DNA from: a bacterium | Lineage (GTDB): Archaea; Thermoplasmatota; E2; JACPAO01; JAHFTW01 | DNA length: 64,000 nucleotides | NCBI GenBank assembly: GCA_040390065.1 | Contig: JAZJZE010000010.1 | Location: 1 to 64,000 of the forward strand | Direction: 5' to 3' | Part shown: positions 1-64,000 of the stretch, piece by piece | Layout of the letters: the number at the start of each line of letters is the position of its first letter | Position numbering within the stretch: the stretch's first letter is position 1 | The notes under the pieces: generated by a model | Told to the model about the DNA's origin: nothing | Seen by the model: only the letters and a program-made list of their open reading frames with translations | Database searches by the model: none | Translations under genes and position numbers: made by a program

Positions 1-333
1 GCGGCAGCCGAAGCTCTTGAGGCCGTCGGAGACGCGGCGGTCGGGCTTGGCGACCTTGAACATGGCCTCCTTGCCGGTGTGGTCCGGGATCGCCTGGACG
101 GCGCCCTCGCGCAGGGCCTTGCGCAGGGCGTCGTCCTCGGCGTTGCGGAGCTCCTCGGCCGTGGACTCGCGCAGTTCGCGCGCGGAGACCTCGCCGCGCA
201 GGGCGCGCGGCAGGGTGGGGCGCACGAGGTCCACGACCGGGGAGTAGACGACCTCCCAGAGCAGGCGGTCGACCGCCGCGAGCAGCTCGCGGTAGTCGGA
301 CTCCTGCAGCTCCTGGCCCTCGAGCGTCTTCAT
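1..333 (-). CDS. Probable minor head (MuF/SPP1 gp7-like) protein, N-terminal part, runs off window start
   Basis: ATG at 333 gives MKTLEGQELQESDYRELLAAVDRLLWEVVY..., open to base 1. Product assigned only from its position after the portal. Confidence 0.5.
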   Translation of the reverse strand, partial: MKTLEGQELQESDYRELLAAVDRLLWEVVYSPVVDLVRPTLPRALRGEVSARELRESTAEELRNAEDDALRKALREGAVQAIPDHTGKEAMFKVAKPDRRVSDGLKSFGCR

Positions 334-336
334 GCT

Positions 337-549
337 TTACGGGCGGGGGGACCCGACGGCGATGGTGAACGTGAAGAAGCCGGCGGCGTTCGCGGCGCGC
401 GTCCTGTCCACCCAGGTCCCCTCGTACTCCCGGGCGAGCTTGTCCGCCAGGCGCTGCGCGGTGGCGCGCTCGGGCCCCGTGGCCCCGCTGCCCTCGGCCG
501 CCGTGGCCCGTAGCGCGCGCACTTTGCGGCGGGCGTTCTCGCTGGTCAG
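337..549 (-). CDS. Small DUF2786-like protein
   Basis: RRKVRALRATA...GATGPERATAQRLADKLAREY resembles the DUF2786 helical hairpin. Probable CTG start overlaps the upstream TGA. Confidence 0.4.
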   Translation of the reverse strand: MTSENARRKVRALRATAAEGSGATGPERATAQRLADKLAREYEGTWVDRTRAANAAGFFTFTIAVGSPRP

Positions 550-944
550 GCGCGCGCCCCGTTCGGCATTACGATGCGGGACTTGGCCGCCAGCCCCTGG
601 ATGCGCTGCATGACCTGGCTCTGGGTGAGCATCGAAATGGCCACGGCGAGGATGCCGCGGTGGACCATGGGCGGCGCGTCGGTGAGTACCGCGACGAGGT
701 CGGTCTCGAAGCTGTACTCGAGGTAGACGACGTGCTTGGCCGGGTCCTTCTGCGGCACGACGCACGGCTCGGCGACCGTCTGCGCGAGCGTCAGGACGCT
801 GGCCAGGACGATAGTGGGCGTGCGCGAGCGCATCACCAGGCTGCTCGTGGCCACGGTGTACTCGAGCTCGATGCTGACCGTCTTCTCAGGCGTCTCCGCC
901 GGCGTCGTCTCGCTTCCCGTCACCGTCTCCTTTGCCTGCTCCAT
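546..944 (-). CDS. Hypothetical protein
   Basis: 132-aa ORF with a G-rich RBS, overlapping the portal 3' end. Confidence 0.55.
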   Translation of the reverse strand: MEQAKETVTGSETTPAETPEKTVSIELEYTVATSSLVMRSRTPTIVLASVLTLAQTVAEPCVVPQKDPAKHVVYLEYSFETDLVAVLTDAPPMVHRGILAVAISMLTQSQVMQRIQGLAAKSRIVMPNGARA

Positions 945-2379
945 CGCTCTCCCCCCCTTCCGGCTTGTCGGCGAACATCTGCTCGGTCGTCGGGACCTCC
1001 GGATTCATCGGTAGGAGGCCCTGCTGCGCCTTGGTCTGGATCGAGATCAGCTTGTGCTTGTGGAGGAGTTCGCCGAGCTCCTTGCTGTCCAGGATCCGCT
1101 TGTCGTATAGCCGCTCGAAGCGGCTCTGCTTCTTGTCGTCGATGTCCTCCTGGTCCTTGGCCGACAGGATGCGCAGGGGCTTGAACTCGAAGGCGATGTC
1201 GTACTCGCGGCCCCAGACGGCGAACATCATGAGGCGGAGCATCTTGCGGATGATGGGGCGCGCGGGGCTGCGCACGCGCGAGGTGATCATGGCGTTGTAG
1301 TTCTCCATGTCGTCCTCGCCGGAGTTGGAGAGGCCGCCGCTGCCGGCGGTGGTGCCGAACAGCTTGGAGAAGGGCATGCGGGTGGCGCAGGAGATGCCGA
1401 TGCGGTTCTCGCGCATGACGTCGGCGAGGCCGGAGAAGCTGTTGGTGACGACCTTGTAGTCGTCCTCGCTGTCGAGGAGGAGGGCGTTCTGGAAGTTCTT
1501 GATCTGGTTGGTGGCCTGGACGCGGGAGGTCAGGGTCTGGAGGCCGCCGGGCACGGCGAGGGTGGAGGCGAAGCCCTTGATGGCGTAGACGTCGACCTTG
1601 GCCTCGTCGAGGATGGCGTAGAGGACGTTGCGGCCGCGCAGCCAGACGTTGAAGTCCTCGACGACGGACTCGATGGCGGAGAAGCCCCAGCCGTTGAGGG
1701 TGGCGCGCAGCAGGCGCGGGGCGCGCTCGCCGCTGAGGGTGAGCACGCGCGAGGCGTCGAGCTTGTGGCCGTAGAACAGGAACGATGGCGCGGAGCGGGA
1801 GGCGCCGGAGAACTCCCAGCGGTCGGCGTCGTACAGCTCGAGGTTGCCTTTCTTGAGGTCTTGCGGGTCGAGGGGCTTCTCGTCGTCCTGGCCGGAGTTG
1901 ATGACGAGGCCGCCGCCGCCGAAGAGGCGGGTCCAGCGCTGGCCGAACCGGACACTCTCCCAGATTCCCTTCTCCTCGAGGAAGTCCTCCAGCTCGCCGA
2001 TGCCTTCCTCGCCCAGCTCCTTGGACATCAGCTCGAGGCCGCCGCGCCAGGCGTCCTCGATGGGCTCGACGATGAGGGTGCGGATGATGCCGTGGGTCTT
2101 GAACAAGTAGGAGAGCAGGGTGAAGTTGACGGTGAGCGGGGCGTAGATGTTGGACGTGAACATCGGGGTCATGCTCGTGATGTTGTCCTGGCCCTGGCCT
2201 TGGCTCAGAGCGGCCGCCAGGCCCTCGAGGCTGTTCTCCATCTGGCCGCGGCGCTGGGCGAGCGACTCGCGCAGGAGGCCGACGCGCTCGCGCAGCTGGG
2301 CGTTGGACAGCTCGCCGACTGGAGCGCTACGCACGGGCTGGCCGTTGGGGCCGACGATCTGGGCGTGGACCTCTTTCAT
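886..2379 (-). CDS. Portal protein (DUF1073/HI1409 type)
   Basis: 497 aa downstream of terminase. Motifs WTRLFGGGGLVIN, ATRMPFSKLFG...GLSNSGEDDMENY and FEFKPL are typical of this portal family. Confidence 0.88.
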   Translation of the reverse strand: MKEVHAQIVGPNGQPVRSAPVGELSNAQLRERVGLLRESLAQRRGQMENSLEGLAAALSQGQGQDNITSMTPMFTSNIYAPLTVNFTLLSYLFKTHGIIRTLIVEPIEDAWRGGLELMSKELGEEGIGELEDFLEEKGIWESVRFGQRWTRLFGGGGLVINSGQDDEKPLDPQDLKKGNLELYDADRWEFSGASRSAPSFLFYGHKLDASRVLTLSGERAPRLLRATLNGWGFSAIESVVEDFNVWLRGRNVLYAILDEAKVDVYAIKGFASTLAVPGGLQTLTSRVQATNQIKNFQNALLLDSEDDYKVVTNSFSGLADVMRENRIGISCATRMPFSKLFGTTAGSGGLSNSGEDDMENYNAMITSRVRSPARPIIRKMLRLMMFAVWGREYDIAFEFKPLRILSAKDQEDIDDKKQSRFERLYDKRILDSKELGELLHKHKLISIQTKAQQGLLPMNPEVPTTEQMFADKPEGGESDGAGKGDGDGKRDDAGGDA

Positions 2380-8902: not shown

Positions 8903-9217
8903 TCACTTTCCGGCCGCGGCCCGGCGCTGCGCACGGCGCTTGCGGGCGATGGCCGCGTCGATCTCGCGGTCGATCTTGGCGAACGTCTCGGCGGCGGGAG
9001 GAACCGCGACGGGCGCTACGGCCGGCGGCGCGGGCGGGAGCACGCGCAGGACGTAGGTCAGCGCCCCGTCGCGCTGGAAGCAGACGTGGATGCCGATCTC
9101 GCGCTTGAGGCTGTCGGTGGTCGTCCACTGGGGCCGCTCGGTGCAGTCGGCCGCGCGGCGCGGCGCTCCGGCGCAGCCGGTCAGTATCGCGGCGATGATG
9201 GCGAGGTAGGATCTCAT
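8903..9217 (-). CDS. Putative lipoprotein
   Basis: MRSYLAIIAAILTG-C lipobox; first gene behind the 9245-9273 promoter. Confidence 0.6.
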   Translation of the reverse strand: MRSYLAIIAAILTGCAGAPRRAADCTERPQWTTTDSLKREIGIHVCFQRDGALTYVLRVLPPAPPAVAPVAVPPAAETFAKIDREIDAAIARKRRAQRRAAAGK

Positions 9218-59430: not shown

Positions 59431-60561
59431 CTAGAGGCTCGACGCGTCGTCGAAGTACATGACCTCCGGGACGCGGTAGACGATCATGCCGCTGTACTGG
59501 CCGTAGCCCACGCCGGTGAAGTGGACGTTATTGGCGGTCGCCGGCGCGGCGATGGTCAGGTCGATCGGGATGTCCATGTGCAGGGTCTCCCGGTCGTTGT
59601 TGTAGAGGGCGTAGCGGTTGGTGCCGCCGGCCGCCCAGAAGCCCGCGTTGCGGACCTTGTTGCCGTAGGCCGTGGGGAGGATCTGGAAGTCTTTGCCGCA
59701 GATCCCCTGGAAGGCCTTCGTCAGGTACTCGAGCTTCGTCTGGCTGATCGGCACGCCGGCGATGGAGACGTTCACGCCGAGGCCGGTCCAGTCGGACATG
59801 GGGACGGTGAGCCGCTTGGGGAAGACGGTCTCGTTGGAGTTGGTGCGGAAGAGGCCGATGAGGCCGGCCACGACCGCGTCCATCTCCGCCGCGCTCATCG
59901 TCGACAGCGGCTTGTTGATGAACGAGTTGTTCACCGTGCAGGCGCTGTTGCTCAGGAGGCCGGGGTAGAGCGTGAGGTTGCTCTGCTTGCCGAGGAAGCC
60001 CACCTGCTGGATGCCGAGCTGCCAGTTCTTGGTCAGCGCCTTGAACTTGGCCTCGACGATGTCCCAGTTGTTGGACGCCAGGGCGCGCTCGACCTCCATG
60101 ATCGAGTAGGAGTAGCCCTTGTTCCAGCCCTTCAGCGCGGCCGTGATCGGCGAGAGGCCGACCTCGACGTTGGGGATCACGCTGCGCGTCCCGAGGTCCA
60201 TGTCGCCGTCCTCGAACGGGCCCGCGGCGTCGAACGTCAGGTTGGTCTTGATCGCGTCCATCCACGGCCCGCGACCCACGAGGACGCTGGCGAAGTCGGC
60301 GATCGCCTCCTCGTAGAAGCGCTGCATGATCACCTCGGCGGCGATCAGGGTCGTGGTCTGGGTGGCGTACTGGAAGCCCAAGGACGCCTGGTTGACGGCC
60401 CCGTTGGCGTTCTTCAGCTCCGCGGCGAGCCCGTGCTTCCACGGGATGGGGTTCTGCGCGATCGCCAGGAGGGTGTTGAGCAGTTCGGGGTGCGCCCCGA
60501 AGCGCGCCATCACGGCCTCGTCGCCCTTGCGCAGGGAGTTCAGCAGCTCGTTGTGTTTCAT
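59431..60561 (-). CDS. Major capsid protein (DUF2184/encapsulin-like HK97 fold)
   Basis: 376 aa after protease and decoration genes; YSYSIMEVERA, FLG...PGLL, YSGMIVYRVPEVMYFD. Confidence 0.85.
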   Translation of the reverse strand: MKHNELLNSLRKGDEAVMARFGAHPELLNTLLAIAQNPIPWKHGLAAELKNANGAVNQASLGFQYATQTTTLIAAEVIMQRFYEEAIADFASVLVGRGPWMDAIKTNLTFDAAGPFEDGDMDLGTRSVIPNVEVGLSPITAALKGWNKGYSYSIMEVERALASNNWDIVEAKFKALTKNWQLGIQQVGFLGKQSNLTLYPGLLSNSACTVNNSFINKPLSTMSAAEMDAVVAGLIGLFRTNSNETVFPKRLTVPMSDWTGLGVNVSIAGVPISQTKLEYLTKAFQGICGKDFQILPTAYGNKVRNAGFWAAGGTNRYALYNNDRETLHMDIPIDLTIAAPATANNVHFTGVGYGQYSGMIVYRVPEVMYFDDASSL

Positions 60562-61105: not shown

Positions 61106-62368
61106 TTACTGGTGCGAGCCGTACCGCGCCCGTCCGAGATCCTCGCGCTCCTGCGCGGACACGATGCCGACGAACGGCGTGCCGACGGAGCCGCCGCGCT
61201 CCTCGGCCGACCTGCGCAGCGCGTTGAAGCGCTCGGTGCGCAGGGCCTCGGCCTTGGCCGCCTTCGCGGCCTCCGCCTTGACCTTGATGGCGTTCTGCTT
61301 CTCGGCCTCGTCCTTCTTCGCCTTCTCCTCGGCCGCCTTCTTCTTGGCGGCGTCGTCCTCGGCGTTCTTGAGCGCGGCCGCCTCGGCGGCCTTCTTCTCG
61401 CGCTCCTGGGCCTGCTCGGGCGTCTCCGGGGGCGCGGCGTTGGTGGGCGCGCCGGCGCCGCCGGGGGCCGGCATGGGCGGCATTCCTGGCTCGGGGATCA
61501 CGTCGCCGCCGCCCAGGGGCTGCGGGGGCAGATCGGCGGCGGGAGCGCCGCCCGGCGCGGCCGCGGGGTCGACGGGCGTGCTCGCCTCGGGCGCGTCGAT
61601 CTCGGCGTTCATCTTCTCGAAGGCCGCTTTGGCCTTCGTGCGGTCATCGTCGCTGGAGGCGTTCTTCATGGCGGCGTCGTAGGAGGCCTGGGCCGCGGCG
61701 CGCTTCTCGACGCGGGCGTTCTCCTTGGCGGCCTTCTCGTCGGCGGCCTTCTTCTTCTCGTCGTCCTCGATGGAGTTGAAGACCTCGCGCAGGTCCTTGA
61801 GCGGGACGAGCGAGAGCGCGGCTTTCAGGACCTTGTTCATGACGCCTCCGGGAAGTGAGTTGAGCAGCTGGATGGTCGCGCCGACGTATCTAGGATTCGG
61901 AACCACGGCGAAATGGGTGTACTCGCCGTTGAGGATGACGGCGTCGTAGTCGACGTTGTGCCACTTGCCCGGGGTCTCGTCGACCTCGGTGGGAACGTAG
62001 GCGCAGGAGAACTGGAAGCCCTTCTCGCAGGCCTGGGCGGTCTCGGCGTTGTCGAGCCCGAAGTTGATGCTCTCCCATCCGCTCTCGCCGTCCCAGAAGC
62101 CGTCTGTGACCTGTCCGTCGTACTTCTTGCCCGGCTGGACCTTGACGTGGTCGAAGCCGCCGGTCTTGCCGACGACTGGCTTGCCGGCCGCGGTGGGGCG
62201 CATCTTGTCGATCGCCTCGCGCGGTAGCAGGTAGGTGGTCTTCGAACCGTCATCGTTGTCGTATGAAACGATCCCGACTTCGAGATGCTTGCCGACGCCC
62301 TTTCTCGCCTTCGACGCCCAAGCGCCTGCGGAGGCGTTGACGAGAGGTCCGTAAATCGTCTTTCTCAC
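61106..62368 (-). CDS. Prohead protease/scaffold (DUF2213-like)
   Basis: GKPVV...H, FSCAY, G.W....YDAV...YTHFAVVPNPR, then a charged/Pro-rich scaffold tail. Confidence 0.85.
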   Translation of the reverse strand: MRKTIYGPLVNASAGAWASKARKGVGKHLEVGIVSYDNDDGSKTTYLLPREAIDKMRPTAAGKPVVGKTGGFDHVKVQPGKKYDGQVTDGFWDGESGWESINFGLDNAETAQACEKGFQFSCAYVPTEVDETPGKWHNVDYDAVILNGEYTHFAVVPNPRYVGATIQLLNSLPGGVMNKVLKAALSLVPLKDLREVFNSIEDDEKKKAADEKAAKENARVEKRAAAQASYDAAMKNASSDDDRTKAKAAFEKMNAEIDAPEASTPVDPAAAPGGAPAADLPPQPLGGGDVIPEPGMPPMPAPGGAGAPTNAAPPETPEQAQEREKKAAEAAALKNAEDDAAKKKAAEEKAKKDEAEKQNAIKVKAEAAKAAKAEALRTERFNALRRSAEERGGSVGTPFVGIVSAQEREDLGRARYGSHQ

Positions 62369-62991
62369 GCGAAGCTCCGCGTGAGCATGTTCGGCGTCAC
62401 CTTATCGAGCTTCATCTTGTTCGCCACGTCGAGGATGACGCGCAGGTTCCACGGAACATGGAGACCGCTGAATGCCCGGCTGCGCGGCCGCATCGGATAG
62501 AAGTGGTCCACGACGTGCTTGATGCCGCTCTCGCGCGTCGCTTGCGCTGCGATGGTATACGGCTTCTGCAGTTCCACTCTGTCGGCCCACCGAGGCATGG
62601 CGTTCATCTTCTGCGCGTAGCGAGCCGCGCCGTACGCGCGGAATCGATGAAGGATCGTCTTCTGGCGGGCCCGTGCCTTTGCGTTCAATTCTTCCCGGTG
62701 CGCTTCGTGATATGACCTCTCGCCCGCTCTGCGCTTTTCGATGTGCTTGAGACGGCTATTTCTCGAAGAGGCGTTCCGCAGGATCCTGTTCTTGGCGTAT
62801 CGAGCGCGCTCCTCGGCCCTGACCTTCTCGGGGTCCTCGATGCGATACCGCTTCTTGCGCAGGCGGCCTTGCTCGAGCGCCTTCGCCTTGTTGGCGAGGT
62901 AGTACGCACGATAATAGTCCTTGTGCTCGGCGTTCCACTTCCGCTTGTACTCGCGGGCGTGTTCGGTAAGCGGAGCGCGCTTCCTGGTCAC
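62365..62991 (-). CDS. HNH homing endonuclease
   Basis: Basic helical N-terminus; PRWAD...HVVDHFYP...GLHVPWNLRVI...N; lower GC; 4-bp overlaps on both sides. Confidence 0.85.
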   Translation of the reverse strand: MTRKRAPLTEHAREYKRKWNAEHKDYYRAYYLANKAKALEQGRLRKKRYRIEDPEKVRAEERARYAKNRILRNASSRNSRLKHIEKRRAGERSYHEAHREELNAKARARQKTILHRFRAYGAARYAQKMNAMPRWADRVELQKPYTIAAQATRESGIKHVVDHFYPMRPRSRAFSGLHVPWNLRVILDVANKMKLDKVTPNMLTRSFA

Positions 62992-64000
62992 GCGCCGCTC
63001 CCGAATCGCGCGGCGCCGATGGCCTCGCGCGAGAAGGCGGTCATGGGGGCGGCGTTCTTCATGTCCTTCATGCTCGAGGCCGTCTCGACGCCGCTGCCCT
63101 TGCACTTCGCGCACTTGACGTCGTTGCCATTGGCGTCCTCGACGTAGCCGGAGGCGTCGCACGTCTGGCACGGGCGCTCGAAGATGGCATTGTGGACGAC
63201 GTCGTCGATGGGCTTCGGCCGCGGGTTCGGCGTGCCGCAGTGGGGGCAGCGCTCCTCGCGGACGGCGGCGCTGAACTCGTAGCCGCAGGGGCAGGAGGGG
63301 CCGATGGCGTTCTCCTTGGCGGCCCACTGCTTCTCGAAGCTCGCGCCGCAGCCGCTCGCGCAGCAGTAGGCCGCCTTGCCGTTCTCGTCGACGACGACGG
63401 GCACGTTGTCGCGGCCGCAGCCGGGGCAGGGGGCGATGTAGTCGCCGAGACTGTTCTTGAACACCTTGGTCGGGTGGTAGCGGGTCGGGCCGGGGGAGTC
63501 GGCGTCGAGCTGAACCATGACCTCCGCGCCGTATGCGTAAGTCACGACGCCGGGATGGCCCTCGATCGTCTTGACGCGGTCTCCCTTCTTGAACTCGTCC
63601 TCGGCTCGGCTCTCGCCGGCGTTCTCTTTCGGCTTCGGCGGGATCTTCTTGCCGGGAGTCTCTTTGCCCGGCGCGACGCCTCCGTCCCAGCCGAAGCCGA
63701 CGCTGACGGGCTCCGTGGGCGGCTCCCCGTTCTCGAGGTCGGCGACGAGCAGCTGCGCGCCGGTGGGGCAGAGGTTCTTGGCGTCGGCCTGGTCGGAGCC
63801 GGCGGGCGCGTGGCGCACGGGGCCGCAGGTCGGGCAGGTCTTGCAGTGGGCCTCGAAGGCGGCGATGGTCTTCTCGAAGTCGGGGCGGACGTTGGCGCGC
63901 TCCTTGCGCTGGACCCAAAGCTCGATGACGTTGCCCTTCGTGACGAGCTTGCACTTGGATCCGCGGCTCTCGTACTGCTTCTTGACGTCATGCGCCTCGT
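62988..64000 (-). CDS. Multi-module (Zn-ribbon/KOW-SH3-like) head-module protein, 5' end beyond window
   Basis: Frame open to the window end; several CxxC modules plus FKKGDRVKT...GVV; C-terminus resembles the scaffold C-terminus. Confidence 0.7.
   Translation of the reverse strand, partial: EAHDVKKQYESRGSKCKLVTKGNVIELWVQRKERANVRPDFEKTIAAFEAHCKTCPTCGPVRHAPAGSDQADAKNLCPTGAQLLVADLENGEPPTEPVSVGFGWDGGVAPGKETPGKKIPPKPKENAGESRAEDEFKKGDRVKTIEGHPGVVTYAYGAEVMVQLDADSPGPTRYHPTKVFKNSLGDYIAPCPGCGRDNVPVVVDENGKAAYCCASGCGASFEKQWAAKENAIGPSCPCGYEFSAAVREERCPHCGTPNPRPKPIDDVVHNAIFERPCQTCDASGYVEDANGNDVKCAKCKGSGVETASSMKDMKNAAPMTAFSREAIGAARFGSGA

What the first reader, a model, noticed from the sequence alone, without database searches (positions are those of the whole stretch)
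61106..64000. Candidate capsid-targeted polyprotein cargo system: scaffold-like C-terminal tag plus Asn-Ala/Ser processing sites
Seen: the protein at 62988->64000 ends SREAIGAARFGSGA and the protease/scaffold ends EREDLGRARYGSHQ, sharing RE-x-[LI]-G-x-AR-[YF]-GS. The protein is a string of small unrelated modules (at least four Cys/His Zn-ribbons, a KOW/SH3-like domain, a Pro-rich segment). Module boundaries fall at KERAN-V, DLEN-G, PKEN-A, VFKN-S, AKEN-A, VVHN-A and DMKN-A. Known: scaffold C-termini bind the coat in HK97-fold phages, and prohead proteases cleave internal proteins (T4 gp21). Inference: the protein is loaded into the prohead through the shared tag and cut into many mini-effectors that could be delivered with the DNA.
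Basis: partly seen in the sequence, partly recalled or inferred. Interest (0 to 1): 0.88.

Follow-up and report, generated by a model that had tools for sequence, protein, structure and literature searches.

The report
Scaffold-tagged polyprotein cargo of phage head
An uncultured phage encodes, next to its head protease, a string of small swappable protein modules that ends in the same short tail as the capsid scaffold and is punctuated by asparagine sites, so it is probably loaded into the young capsid and cut into pieces there, though no experiment has tested this.

Summary
The full gene (553 aa, window 62988 to 64649 on the contig) lies between a MuF-like gene and a protease/scaffold gene. 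Its last residues (REAIGAARFGS) match the scaffold's end (REDLGRARYGS). It is the best non-self tail match among 23,885 ORF tails of the genome. In 29 of 35 family proteins a G-x3-[YFW]-G tail sits in the last 30 residues. Relatives are shuffled strings of mini-modules: 55 recurring module families and 240 singletons. Asn-[Ala/Gly/Ser] is the only dipeptide class enriched at similarity breakpoints, and it has an extended context E-x-x-N|A. The same site occurs at a near-invariant Asn51 of the capsid protein, behind a variable N-terminal leader. It also occurs 38 residues before the scaffold's end.

The protease domain has the herpesvirus assemblin / T4 gp21 fold, with invariant His74, Ser121 and His152. 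A co-fold places the tag on the capsid protein (score 0.77, best control 0.08).

Cleavage, packaging and delivery are inferred, not shown. I found no description in print. The scan has noted analogous tag-plus-cut-site systems, with other motifs, in other phages. Verdict: a real feature and a new variant of the T4-type capsid cargo principle.

The parts
62988..64000 (-). ORF-X polyprotein, C-terminal 336 residues. The full gene is 553 aa and continues to contig position 64649, beyond the window.
   Evidence: 14 homologues. 27 representatives at E<1e-10 among 1.84 billion.
62991..63053 (-). Terminal 21-residue tag module AAPMTAFSREAIGAARFGSGA (residues 533-553), preceded by DMKN532|A.
   Evidence: Predicted helix 538-549. 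Residues 538, 541-542 and 544-552 contact the capsid protein in the co-fold. 29 of 35 family proteins carry the motif in their last 30 residues.
63054..63893 (-). Span holding the seven candidate cut sites in the window: Asn codons N532 63054-63056, N487 63189-63191, N447 63309-63311, N399 63453-63455, N343 63621-63623, N307 63729-63731, N253 63891-63893.
   Evidence: Each lies in or at the edge of a low-pLDDT segment of the model. N253 and N307 are invariant in A2.
62365..62985 (-). HNH-like endonuclease gene inserted between the polyprotein and the protease. It is not part of the mechanism.
   Evidence: phrog_26577 E 7e-17. L087 has a gene in the same place.
61844..62368 (-). Protease domain of the protease/scaffold protein (residues 1-175). 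Candidate triad: His74 (62147-62149), Ser121 (62006-62008), His152 (61913-61915).
   Evidence: Invariant in 13 aligned proteins. Model pLDDT 83-95. VZV protease Z 10.9 and T4 gp21 Z 9.1. phrog_530 head maturation protease E 3e-8.
61226..61843 (-). Helical and Pro-rich scaffold region with N|A sites, including AAKEN|A, AMKN|A, EKMN|A, APTN|A, ALKN|A, EKQN|A and ERFN382|A.
   Evidence: 9 N-A dipeptides in the whole 420-aa protein against 2.9 expected. Long helices 190-258 and 317-391.
61109..61222 (-). Scaffold tail released by the conserved F-x-x-L-[RK]-N|A site (38 residues), ending REDLGRARYGSHQ.
   Evidence: F381, G412 and G417 are invariant in A3.
60409..60561 (-). N-terminal 51 residues of the major capsid protein, a putative propeptide ending AELKN51|ANG.
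   Evidence: Asn51 is present in 29 of 31 aligned capsid proteins. The next residue is A in 21, T in 4, S in 3 and K in 1. The preceding part varies from 13 to 54 residues.
59431..60408 (-). Body of the major capsid protein (PF09950). It holds the predicted docking surface for the tag: residues 83, 86-89, 92-97, 181, 184 and 324-334.

Best explanation
ORF-X belongs to a small family of head-module polyproteins of an uncultured phage lineage. Each member is a string of small, mostly zinc-binding, freely shuffled modules.

Proposed mechanism:
1. The last ~21 residues copy the C-terminal tail of the phage's own protease/scaffold protein. This tail docks on the major capsid protein, so the polyprotein is co-assembled into the procapsid alongside the scaffold (inferred from sequence and a co-fold).
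2. The assemblin-like serine protease fused to the scaffold then cuts after Asn in E-x-x-N|[A/G/S] sites. It trims the capsid protein's N-terminal leader at Asn51, dismantles the scaffold, removes the tails, and cuts the polyprotein into about ten free mini-proteins (inferred from motif statistics and conservation).
3. What the pieces do is open. The shuffling, and the presence of an InPase domain of virion-packaged polyvalent proteins in one relative, favour cargo that stays in the head and enters the host with the DNA. This last step is the weakest.
For: Gene order: portal, MuF, ORF-X, (HNH), protease/scaffold, 151-aa protein, capsid protein. Two IMG/VR relatives, L087 and L009, keep a polyprotein in that slot: 1344 aa directly upstream of the HNH-like and protease/scaffold genes in L087, and 1591 aa directly upstream of the protease/scaffold in L009.

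Tail:
- It is the best non-self match of 23,885 ORF tails.
- 29 of 35 family proteins carry it at the end, and 3 more carry it internally.
- The tail is usually a separate last module, 12-13 residues after an N|[A/S].

Sites:
- N[AGS] is the only one of 20 X[AGS] classes enriched at 1663 similarity breakpoints (0.286 against 0.157, ratio 1.82; the next class is 1.17).
- Context at 358 N-A sites: P4 Glu 35% (x4.4), P3 Leu 22% (x4.0).
- E..N[AGS] occurs 4 times in the 553 aa of ORF-X and 4 times in the 420 aa of the scaffold, against 0.26 per 1000 aa in the rest of the genome.
- Capsid protein Asn51 is present in 29 of 31 homologues, behind a leader of variable length.
- The site F..L[RK]N|A is conserved in 13 scaffolds, down to 25% identity.
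- Phage phi1422 gp48 shows the same tail and 13 N[AGS].

Structure:
- The low-pLDDT linkers of the ORF-X model (131-140, 171-253, 307-331, 339-393, 436-449, 479-492, 518-532) hold or abut the sites.
- Protease fold: VZV protease Z 10.9 (rmsd 3.0, 111 aligned) and T4 gp21 Z 9.1 (rmsd 3.2, 119 aligned). H74, S121 and H152 are invariant.

Co-fold of the capsid protein with ORF-X 505-553: score 0.77, best of 3 controls 0.08. That mark was reached by 58 of 80 solved complexes and 2 of 110 mismatched pairs. The runs agree in at least 84% of contacts, and the partner's pLDDT is at least 50. The contacts fall on the tag itself.

The L009 polyprotein carries InPase PF18823, E 2.5e-32. Iyer et al. 2017 (PMC5512222, passages read) assign that domain to virion-packaged polyvalent proteins.
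Against: - No experiment exists, and no cultured phage carries the polyprotein: 0 matches in 50,697 phage records.
- A PSSM built from 12 other scaffold tails did not place the ORF-X tail among the top 12 of 23,899 ORF tails. The BLOSUM margin is small (37 against 34). The likeness is therefore to the lineage's own scaffold and is short.
- Only three polyprotein/scaffold pairs could be compared, and they show no covariation.
- Not every N[AGS] is a boundary: only 25% of 1385 piece-to-piece hits cover at least 80% of both pieces.
- The ORF-X model is weak overall: mean pLDDT 61.8, pTM 0.28, 233 residues under 50.
- ORF-X is acidic (net -11) and its pieces are 2-9 kDa. That would equally suit scaffold-like material expelled on DNA packaging.
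- The co-fold used my own alignments. It supports binding but does not show it.
- The conserved Asn51-Ala of the capsid protein could be structural rather than a cut site.
Confidence: 0.55

Rival explanations
1. Auxiliary scaffold or core filler. ORF-X is loaded through the shared tail and cut at the Asn sites, but the fragments leave the capsid with the scaffold debris when DNA enters. The modules then serve assembly (bulk, nucleation, metal binding), not the next infection.
For: The tail and site logic are the same as in the scaffold. ORF-X has net charge -11 and small pieces. Its N-terminal module (1-46) is one that other phages fuse to S78, S49 and DUF2213-type head proteases and to portals (structure hits are leads only).
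Against: A filler would not be expected to be a hypervariable set of folded mini-domains: 55 recurring families and 240 singletons, with a different architecture in each of 36 proteins. One relative carries an InPase enzyme domain. Phi1422 assembles with the same protease/scaffold type without any such gene.
Confidence: 0.25
2. Relic of gene fission. ORF-X took its N-terminal module and its tail from an ancestral protease/scaffold gene. The likeness is inherited rather than functional. The Asn-Ala dipeptides are linker or helix-cap preferences, and the protein acts uncut in the cytoplasm, for example as a zinc-finger regulator.
For: DUF2213 proteins P0016-P0019 carry the same N-terminal module and a related tail in one protein. 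The tag is short. No cleavage data exist.
Against: The tail is kept in 29 of 35 proteins whose other modules are freely exchanged. The tail is set off by its own Asn site. The site context E-x-x-N|A is shared with the capsid leader and the scaffold. The co-fold stands above controls.
Confidence: 0.1
3. The tail addresses a partner other than the coat, such as the protease domain, the scaffold helices or the portal. ORF-X would then enter the core through scaffold-scaffold contacts, as T4 internal proteins do, rather than by coat binding.
For: In T4 the targeting sequence directs proteins to the scaffold core (recalled knowledge; reviews PMC3012670 and PMC9958956 seen only in a search listing). 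Only one partner, the capsid protein, could be tested here.
Against: The co-fold with the capsid protein scored 0.77 against 0.08 for the best control. The aromatic residue of the tag (F549) touches MCP residues 86, 88, 93, 181, 184 and 331, next to conserved columns V93, W180 and G183.
Confidence: 0.1

Closest known systems
Phage T4 internal proteins IPI-III and Alt, with their capsid-targeting sequence, processed by prohead protease gp21 (and the related inner-body or ejection proteins of phiKZ/SPN3US-type giant phages)
   Same: Extra proteins are addressed to the procapsid interior by a short shared peptide. A head protease of the assemblin/gp21 fold trims them at a simple consensus site that also occurs in scaffold and coat. 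The protease fold match to gp21 (5jbl) is Z 9.1.
   Different: - The address here is C-terminal and copies the scaffold's coat-binding tail. In T4 it is an N-terminal leader that targets the core.
- The predicted P1 residue is Asn, not Glu.
- The cargo is one polyprotein of about ten shuffled mini-modules, not separate genes.
- The T4 details are recalled, not tested here.
Scaffold C-terminal coat-binding tails shared between proteins: lambda C/Nu3, phage 80alpha scaffold and SaPI1 CpmB, HK97 protease C-terminus, P22 scaffold helix-turn-helix
   Same: A short C-terminal helix is the coat-binding handle, and a second protein that carries the same tail gains entry to the procapsid. Here the predicted helix 538-549 docks on the capsid protein in the co-fold.
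   Different: In the known cases the second protein is a nested product, a protease or a size-redirecting scaffold. It is not a modular cargo string. These examples are recalled; no sequence likeness to them was tested.
Polyvalent proteins of phages and conjugative elements (Iyer, Burroughs, Anand, de Souza, Aravind 2017, PMC5512222; passages read)
   Same: These are multi-domain, highly variable proteins encoded among virion genes and predicted to be packaged and injected. The L009 relative carries their InPase domain.
   Different: ORF-X has no recognisable enzyme or embedded peptidase domain. Its modules are 20-85 residues long. Processing is predicted to be by the separate head protease at Asn sites, and loading by a scaffold-like tail rather than by fusion to MuF or portal.
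Encapsulin cargo-loading peptides
   Same: A short C-terminal peptide on cargo binds the inner face of an HK97-fold shell.
   Different: This is a tailed phage with portal, MuF, protease and tail genes. The peptide is unrelated in sequence, as far as I recall the encapsulin motif. Cleavage is not part of the encapsulin system.
Herpesvirus assemblin precursor (protease fused to scaffold, cut at R and M sites)
   Same: An N-terminal His/Ser/His protease of the same fold (VZV protease Z 10.9) is fused to a helical scaffold, and a site near the C-terminus releases the coat-binding tail.
   Different: The cut site differs: Ala|Ser in herpesviruses (recalled) against predicted Asn|Ala here. No cargo polyprotein is known there.

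Membership tests
Pfam DUF2213 (PF09979) protease/scaffold proteins | Match to the Pfam model | tested here: not met
   The window protein has no Pfam hit at E <= 0.1 or <= 0.01. 11 of 13 aligned relatives do match (best E 2.6e-11). I therefore call it DUF2213-like, not a member by the model.
Pfam DUF2213 (PF09979) protease/scaffold proteins | Alignable with members over the protease domain, with shared invariant residues and tail | tested here: met
   A3: 25-48% identity. Invariant residues include H74, S121, H152, NPRY, F381, G412 and G417.
Assemblin / prohead serine proteases (herpesvirus S21, T4 gp21 type) | Shared fold | tested here: met
   1vzv_A Z 10.9, rmsd 3.0, 111 aligned. 5jbl_A Z 9.1, rmsd 3.2, 119 aligned. 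8j3s_A Z 7.6. Foldseek is only weak: E 0.02-0.05, prob 0.90-0.96.
Assemblin / prohead serine proteases (herpesvirus S21, T4 gp21 type) | Catalytic Ser with His partners in the active-site geometry | tested here: inconclusive
   H74, S121 and H152 are invariant in 13 sequences. Their geometry in the model and their equivalence to the known triads were not examined.
T4-type capsid-targeted internal proteins | Short shared address peptide on cargo | tested here: met
   The tail is shared with the scaffold and kept in 29 of 35 family proteins. It is C-terminal, not N-terminal as in T4.
T4-type capsid-targeted internal proteins | Presence in proheads or virions, and removal of the address by the head protease | not testable with these tools
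   Needs proteomics or in vitro cleavage.
Polyvalent proteins (Iyer et al. 2017) | Several effector or enzyme domains in one polypeptide in a virion-gene context | tested here: inconclusive
   The context is met. ORF-X itself has no domain above Pfam cut-offs. The relative L009 has InPase, E 2.5e-32.
Polyvalent proteins (Iyer et al. 2017) | Embedded peptidase (for example MPTase) or fusion to MuF or portal | tested here: not met
   No such Pfam or PHROG hit in ORF-X. MuF is a separate upstream gene.
MuF polymorphic toxins | N-terminal MuF domain with a variable C-terminal toxin | tested here: not met
   ORF-X has no MuF match. The MuF-like protein (contig 65132-66226) ends at its MuF domain.
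Scaffold-tail mimics (coat-binding C-terminal helix) | C-terminal helix that binds the coat protein | tested here: met
   By prediction only: helix 538-549; co-fold score 0.77 against 0.08 for the best control.

The most novel reading that the evidence does not exclude
A 21-residue C-terminal address copied from the scaffold, together with an Asn-specific assemblin-like protease, forms a general cargo-loading system of this phage lineage. It lets the phage load any string of mini-proteins into its capsid and release them as free units. The phage uses this to deliver a hypervariable arsenal of zinc-finger-sized effectors, for example anti-defence factors, into the host ahead of gene expression. 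The tag alone would then suffice to load foreign proteins into an HK97-fold capsid.
Probability: 0.25. Interest if true: 0.9.

Novelty: new variant of a known kind. Interest (0 to 1): 0.78.

Why it matters
Three things would follow if the reading is right.

1. It would give the DUF2213-type head proteases, which are widespread and uncharacterised, a predicted fold, a triad and a cut-site rule (after Asn, E-x-x-N|A/G/S). That rule can be tested at once in a cultured phage, Bdellovibrio phage phi1422.

2. It would show a second, independent way for tailed phages to load extra proteins into the capsid: copying the scaffold's coat-binding tail onto a cleavable polyprotein. T4 uses an N-terminal leader instead.

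3. The shuffled mini-modules would be a reservoir of unknown small proteins that may act at the first moments of infection. The 21-residue tag would also be a candidate handle for loading foreign cargo into phage capsids.

Tried and rejected
- Related loci searched with the protease as a single protein in IMG/VR: 44 pattern hits, none confirmed.
- Related loci searched with alignment A2 in JGI metagenome contigs: 248 pattern hits, none confirmed. In GTDB genome contigs with A1, only 2 loci shared the N-terminal module alone.
- The IMG/VR search with A1 gave 80 loci. Nearly all share only the N-terminal module (1-46), which sits on many kinds of head protease. It is therefore not specific to this system. 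Only L009, and from A2 L087, are true relatives.
- tblastn against 50,697 phage records: ORF-X no match; P0016 no match at 1e-5; the protease domain matched only phi1422 (36% identity) and one weak Hafnia phage hit.
- Class-level genome searches: ORF-X gave 1 weak, 59-residue hit in 196 other genomes. The capsid protein gave 0 of 196. The host assignment therefore gains no support.
- The PSSM of other scaffolds' tails did not pick out the ORF-X tail.
- Foldseek against PDB gave no hit at E <= 0.001. The fold call rests on VIA-align.
- A PDB sequence search with the capsid profile found only 8hdt_A, which has no leader and does not inform on cleavage.
- Literature. Six searches and passages of three papers (the bioRxiv phi24B preprint 10.64898/2026.04.10.717836, PMC5512222, PMC8004638) gave no description of the DUF2213 protease's specificity, of Asn-specific prohead cleavage, or of this polyprotein family. 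Supplements were not available.
- ESM Atlas gave no named family for module 254-307.
Synteny therefore rests on the window, L087 and L009. In addition, four homologues share their longest-contig length with close capsid-protein relatives: P0014/P0120 46617, P0012/P0121 14919, P0007/P0128 25720, P0008/P0131 35994. This is suggestive only.
Full report
**What is there.** The window is the first 64,000 bases of a 67,444-base contig. On the minus strand the contig's right end carries a phage head module, in this order:
- a portal (cut by the contig end; phrog_146)
- a MuF-like head-morphogenesis gene (contig 65132-66226)
- ORF-X (62988-64649, 553 aa)
- an HNH-like gene (62365-62985; phrog_26577)
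- a 420-aa protease/scaffold protein (61106-62368; phrog_530 'head maturation protease', E 3e-8)
- a 151-aa protein
- a PF09950 major capsid protein (59431-60561)

**The observation.** Both quoted C-termini and all seven quoted Asn boundaries are in the sequence. I compared the scaffold's last 15 residues with the last 22 residues of all 23,885 stop-to-stop ORFs of at least 60 aa in the genome. The ORF-X tail is the best non-self match: BLOSUM62 score 37, next best 34, mean 12.6, sd 3.6. The margin is small. A position matrix built from 12 other scaffolds' tails did not lift the ORF-X tail into the top 12. The likeness is therefore short and is specific to this lineage's scaffold. What makes it convincing is conservation.

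**The family.** ORF-X has 14 homologues in the 5.8-billion-protein collection. In 1.84 billion cluster representatives it has 107 hits at E <= 0.001, 27 at E <= 1e-10 and 13 at E <= 1e-30. Most of the weak hits share only the first 46 residues. I analysed 35 family proteins: 33 from the two searches plus the polyproteins of IMG/VR loci L087 and L009.
- 29 of 35 carry G-x3-[Y/F/W]-G within the last 30 residues, typically as ..REAxGAxRYGSxx.
- Three more (P0004, P0038, P0041) carry the motif internally, followed by further modules.
- Three lack a tag: P0032 and P0047 have no such motif, and the only match in P0015 lies inside another module (GGDEFG), not in a tag.
- The tail is usually its own last module, beginning 12-13 residues after an N|[A/S].

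No cultured phage has a homologue: 0 of 50,697 records.

**Modularity.** I cut the 36 proteins (the 35 plus a second polyprotein-like ORF of L009) at every N|[AGS]. This gives 495 pieces with a median length of 46 aa. They fall into 55 families with two or more members and 240 singletons, and the architecture strings all differ. The cut rule is imperfect: only 25% of 1385 piece-to-piece hits cover at least 80% of both pieces.

A fairer test used 1663 unique endpoints of local similarity at which both proteins continue for more than 15 residues. N[AGS] lies within 3 residues of 28.6% of them, against 15.7% of random positions (ratio 1.82). None of the other 19 X[AGS] classes exceeds 1.17.

The sites have an extended context. 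At 358 N-A sites, P4 is Glu in 35% (4.4-fold enrichment), P3 is Leu in 22% (4.0-fold), P2 is Glu or Lys, and P3' is Pro in 20%. The context is much weaker for Asn followed by other residues. Boundary Asn residues are invariant in otherwise variable alignments: N46 and N253 in A1; N131, N253 and N307 in A2; N131 and N253 at 90% or more in A4.

In the AlphaFold model of ORF-X (mean pLDDT 61.8, pTM 0.28), confident beads are residues 1-46, 47-130 and 254-306, with weaker ones at 400-435, 450-478 and 493-517. They are separated by low-confidence stretches: 131-140, 171-253, 307-331, 339-393, 436-449, 479-492 and 518-532. These stretches hold or abut the candidate sites.

**The same sites in the other head proteins.**
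- Scaffold: 9 N-A dipeptides against 2.9 expected. E..N[AGS] occurs 4 times in its 420 aa and 4 times in the 553 aa of ORF-X. The rest of the genome has 0.26 per 1000 aa, and there Asn is followed by Ala at the frequency of Ala itself (0.119 against 0.126).
- In 13 aligned protease/scaffold proteins, down to 25% identity, a site F-x-x-L-[R/K]-N|A lies about 35 residues before the end. It is followed by [D/E]-[R/K/Q]-[L/I/V]-x-x-G-x-x-[R/K]-Y-G-[S/K/A/T].
- Capsid protein: in 31 aligned capsid proteins down to 33% identity, Asn51 (AELKN|ANG) is present in 29. The next residue is Ala in 21, Thr in 4, Ser in 3 and Lys in 1. The part before it varies from 13 to 54 residues. This is the usual picture of a leader removed at maturation.
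- MuF: both MuF-like copies on the contig keep E-L-x-N|A near residue 63.
- Bdellovibrio phage phi1422, the only cultured phage with a related protease (36% identity), has a gp48 that ends ..VARGKSRYGSK and holds 13 N[AGS]. It has no polyprotein gene.

**The enzyme.** The window's protein misses the Pfam DUF2213 model, but 11 of its 13 aligned relatives match it. Residues 20-170 fold with pLDDT 83-95. They match varicella-zoster virus protease (Z 10.9, rmsd 3.0, 111 aligned), T4 gp21 (Z 9.1, rmsd 3.2, 119 aligned) and cytomegalovirus protease (Z 7.6) above unrelated rows. Foldseek alone was weak. His74, Ser121 and His152 are invariant. This is the pattern of a His/Ser/His assemblin-type protease, but I did not check the geometry. 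The rest of the protein is long helices, a Pro-rich stretch and a short terminal helix, as expected of a scaffold.

**Does the tail bind the coat?** I co-folded the capsid protein (alignment of 31) with ORF-X residues 505-553 (alignment of 30).
- Score 0.77; best of 3 controls 0.08.
- That mark was reached by 58 of 80 solved complexes and 2 of 110 mismatched pairs.
- The runs agree in at least 84% of contacts, and the partner's pLDDT is at least 50.
- My own alignments were used, so the counts hold only roughly.
- Confident contacts are ORF-X 538, 541-542 and 544-552, which is the tag itself. They touch capsid residues 19-23, 83-97, 181, 184 and 324-334, several of which lie in conserved columns.

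The model supports binding; it does not show it. The scaffold's own tail could not be tested, because only one job was allowed.

**Relatives and context.** L087 and L009 (IMG/VR) share the capsid protein, the 157-aa protein and the protease/scaffold. In L087 a 1344-aa polyprotein follows MuF directly and is separated from the protease/scaffold only by the HNH-like gene. In L009 a 1591-aa polyprotein lies directly upstream of the protease/scaffold, with several other ORFs between it and MuF. Their tails are ..KEAAGNAIYGS.. and ..EEDGARKYGS.., beside scaffolds ending ..DLGRARYGS and ..DLGRSRYGS.

L009 also has a separate 214-aa ORF ending ..RKESLGNSRYGGRLC. Its polyprotein begins with an InPase domain (PF18823, E 2.5e-32). 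Iyer et al. 2017 (PMC5512222, passages read) place this domain in phage polyvalent proteins that they predict to be packaged and injected. This is the only link to a known effector class.

The first 46 residues of ORF-X form a confident three-helix module. The same module is found at the N-termini of many kinds of head protease and scaffold proteins, and as small stand-alone proteins. Atlas structure hits include S78 and S49 proteases and a portal (leads only). ORF-X thus carries, at both ends, pieces that other phages put on the protease/scaffold itself.

**Interpretation.**
- Best-supported reading (confidence 0.55): co-assembly into the procapsid through a scaffold-mimicking tail, then cutting after Asn by the assemblin-like protease. 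That protease also matures the coat and dismantles the scaffold.
- The idea that the released modules stay in the head and act in the next host is an inference from their variability and from the InPase relative. Acidic charge (net -11) and small size fit equally with expulsion.
- Rivals: an expelled auxiliary scaffold (0.25), a functionless relic of gene fission (0.1), and a tail that addresses a partner other than the coat (0.1).

**Novelty.** The principle of an address peptide plus head-protease trimming of internal proteins is known from T4 and the giant phages. Shared scaffold tails are known from lambda, 80alpha/SaPI1 and HK97 (all recalled). New here are:
- the combination of a C-terminal scaffold mimic with a polyprotein of about ten shuffled mini-modules;
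- a predicted Asn-specific cut rule for an uncharacterised protease family.

Six literature searches found nothing on these points. Supplements were closed. The scan's own notes list analogous tag-plus-cut-site systems with other motifs in other phage genomes. I did not test those notes. They suggest the theme is general and do not show that this case is already described.

**Caveats on origin.** Earlier notes call the genome a Thermoplasmatota archaeon. The contig is viral from end to end. Its GC is 0.682, against 0.668 for the rest of the genome. Its tetranucleotide correlation to the rest is 0.960, the third lowest among contigs of at least 10 kb. Neither ORF-X nor the capsid protein has a real relative in 196 other genomes of the class. 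The host is therefore unknown, and mis-binning is possible.

Noticed in passing
window 1-2379 and contig 65132-67442 (L004 5132-7442): The two ends of the contig carry different copies of the same genes. The portal at 886-2379 is 66-70% identical to the portal fragment at the right end. The MuF N-terminus at 1-333 is 71% identical to the MuF at 65132-66226. The contig is therefore either one phage genome plus the start of a second, related one (tandem or mixed population), or a chimeric assembly.
   Followed up: partly
window 62365-62985 (-); L087 6977-7546: An HNH-like endonuclease gene sits between the polyprotein and the protease/scaffold gene, both in the window and in L087. L009 has none there. 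It looks like a mobile insertion within the head module.
   Followed up: no
contig 64512-64649 (ORF-X residues 1-46), just beyond the window: A confident three-helix module with the motif ..RFM.S.EA..D[FY]PD[EQ]KQR.AVAYS.. recurs at the N-termini of DUF2213-type, S78 and S49 head proteases and of portals. It also occurs as 50-130-aa stand-alone proteins. 80 IMG/VR loci carry it, and most of the 107 hits in the representative search share only this module. Its role is unknown.
   Followed up: partly
L009 9227-14002 and 6098-6742: The relative's polyprotein starts with an InPase domain (PF18823, E 2.5e-32). A separate 214-aa ORF after MuF ends in a tag-like ..RKESLGNSRYGGRLC. L009 also has a 1076-aa polyprotein-like ORF upstream of its portal.
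   Followed up: partly
whole contig C10 against the rest of genome G000: Earlier notes call the bin a Thermoplasmatota archaeon. The phage contig has similar GC (0.682 against 0.668) but one of the lowest tetranucleotide correlations (0.960). It has no capsid or polyprotein relatives in 196 genomes of the class. The gene at 8903-9217 begins with a lipobox-like LTGC signal. The host is uncertain.
   Followed up: partly
P0041 (2270 aa) and P0038 (670 aa): Two large family members carry tag-like G-x3-Y-G motifs near the N-terminus as well as near the C-terminus, each followed by further modules. The tag can therefore be internal, and possibly repeated.
   Followed up: no
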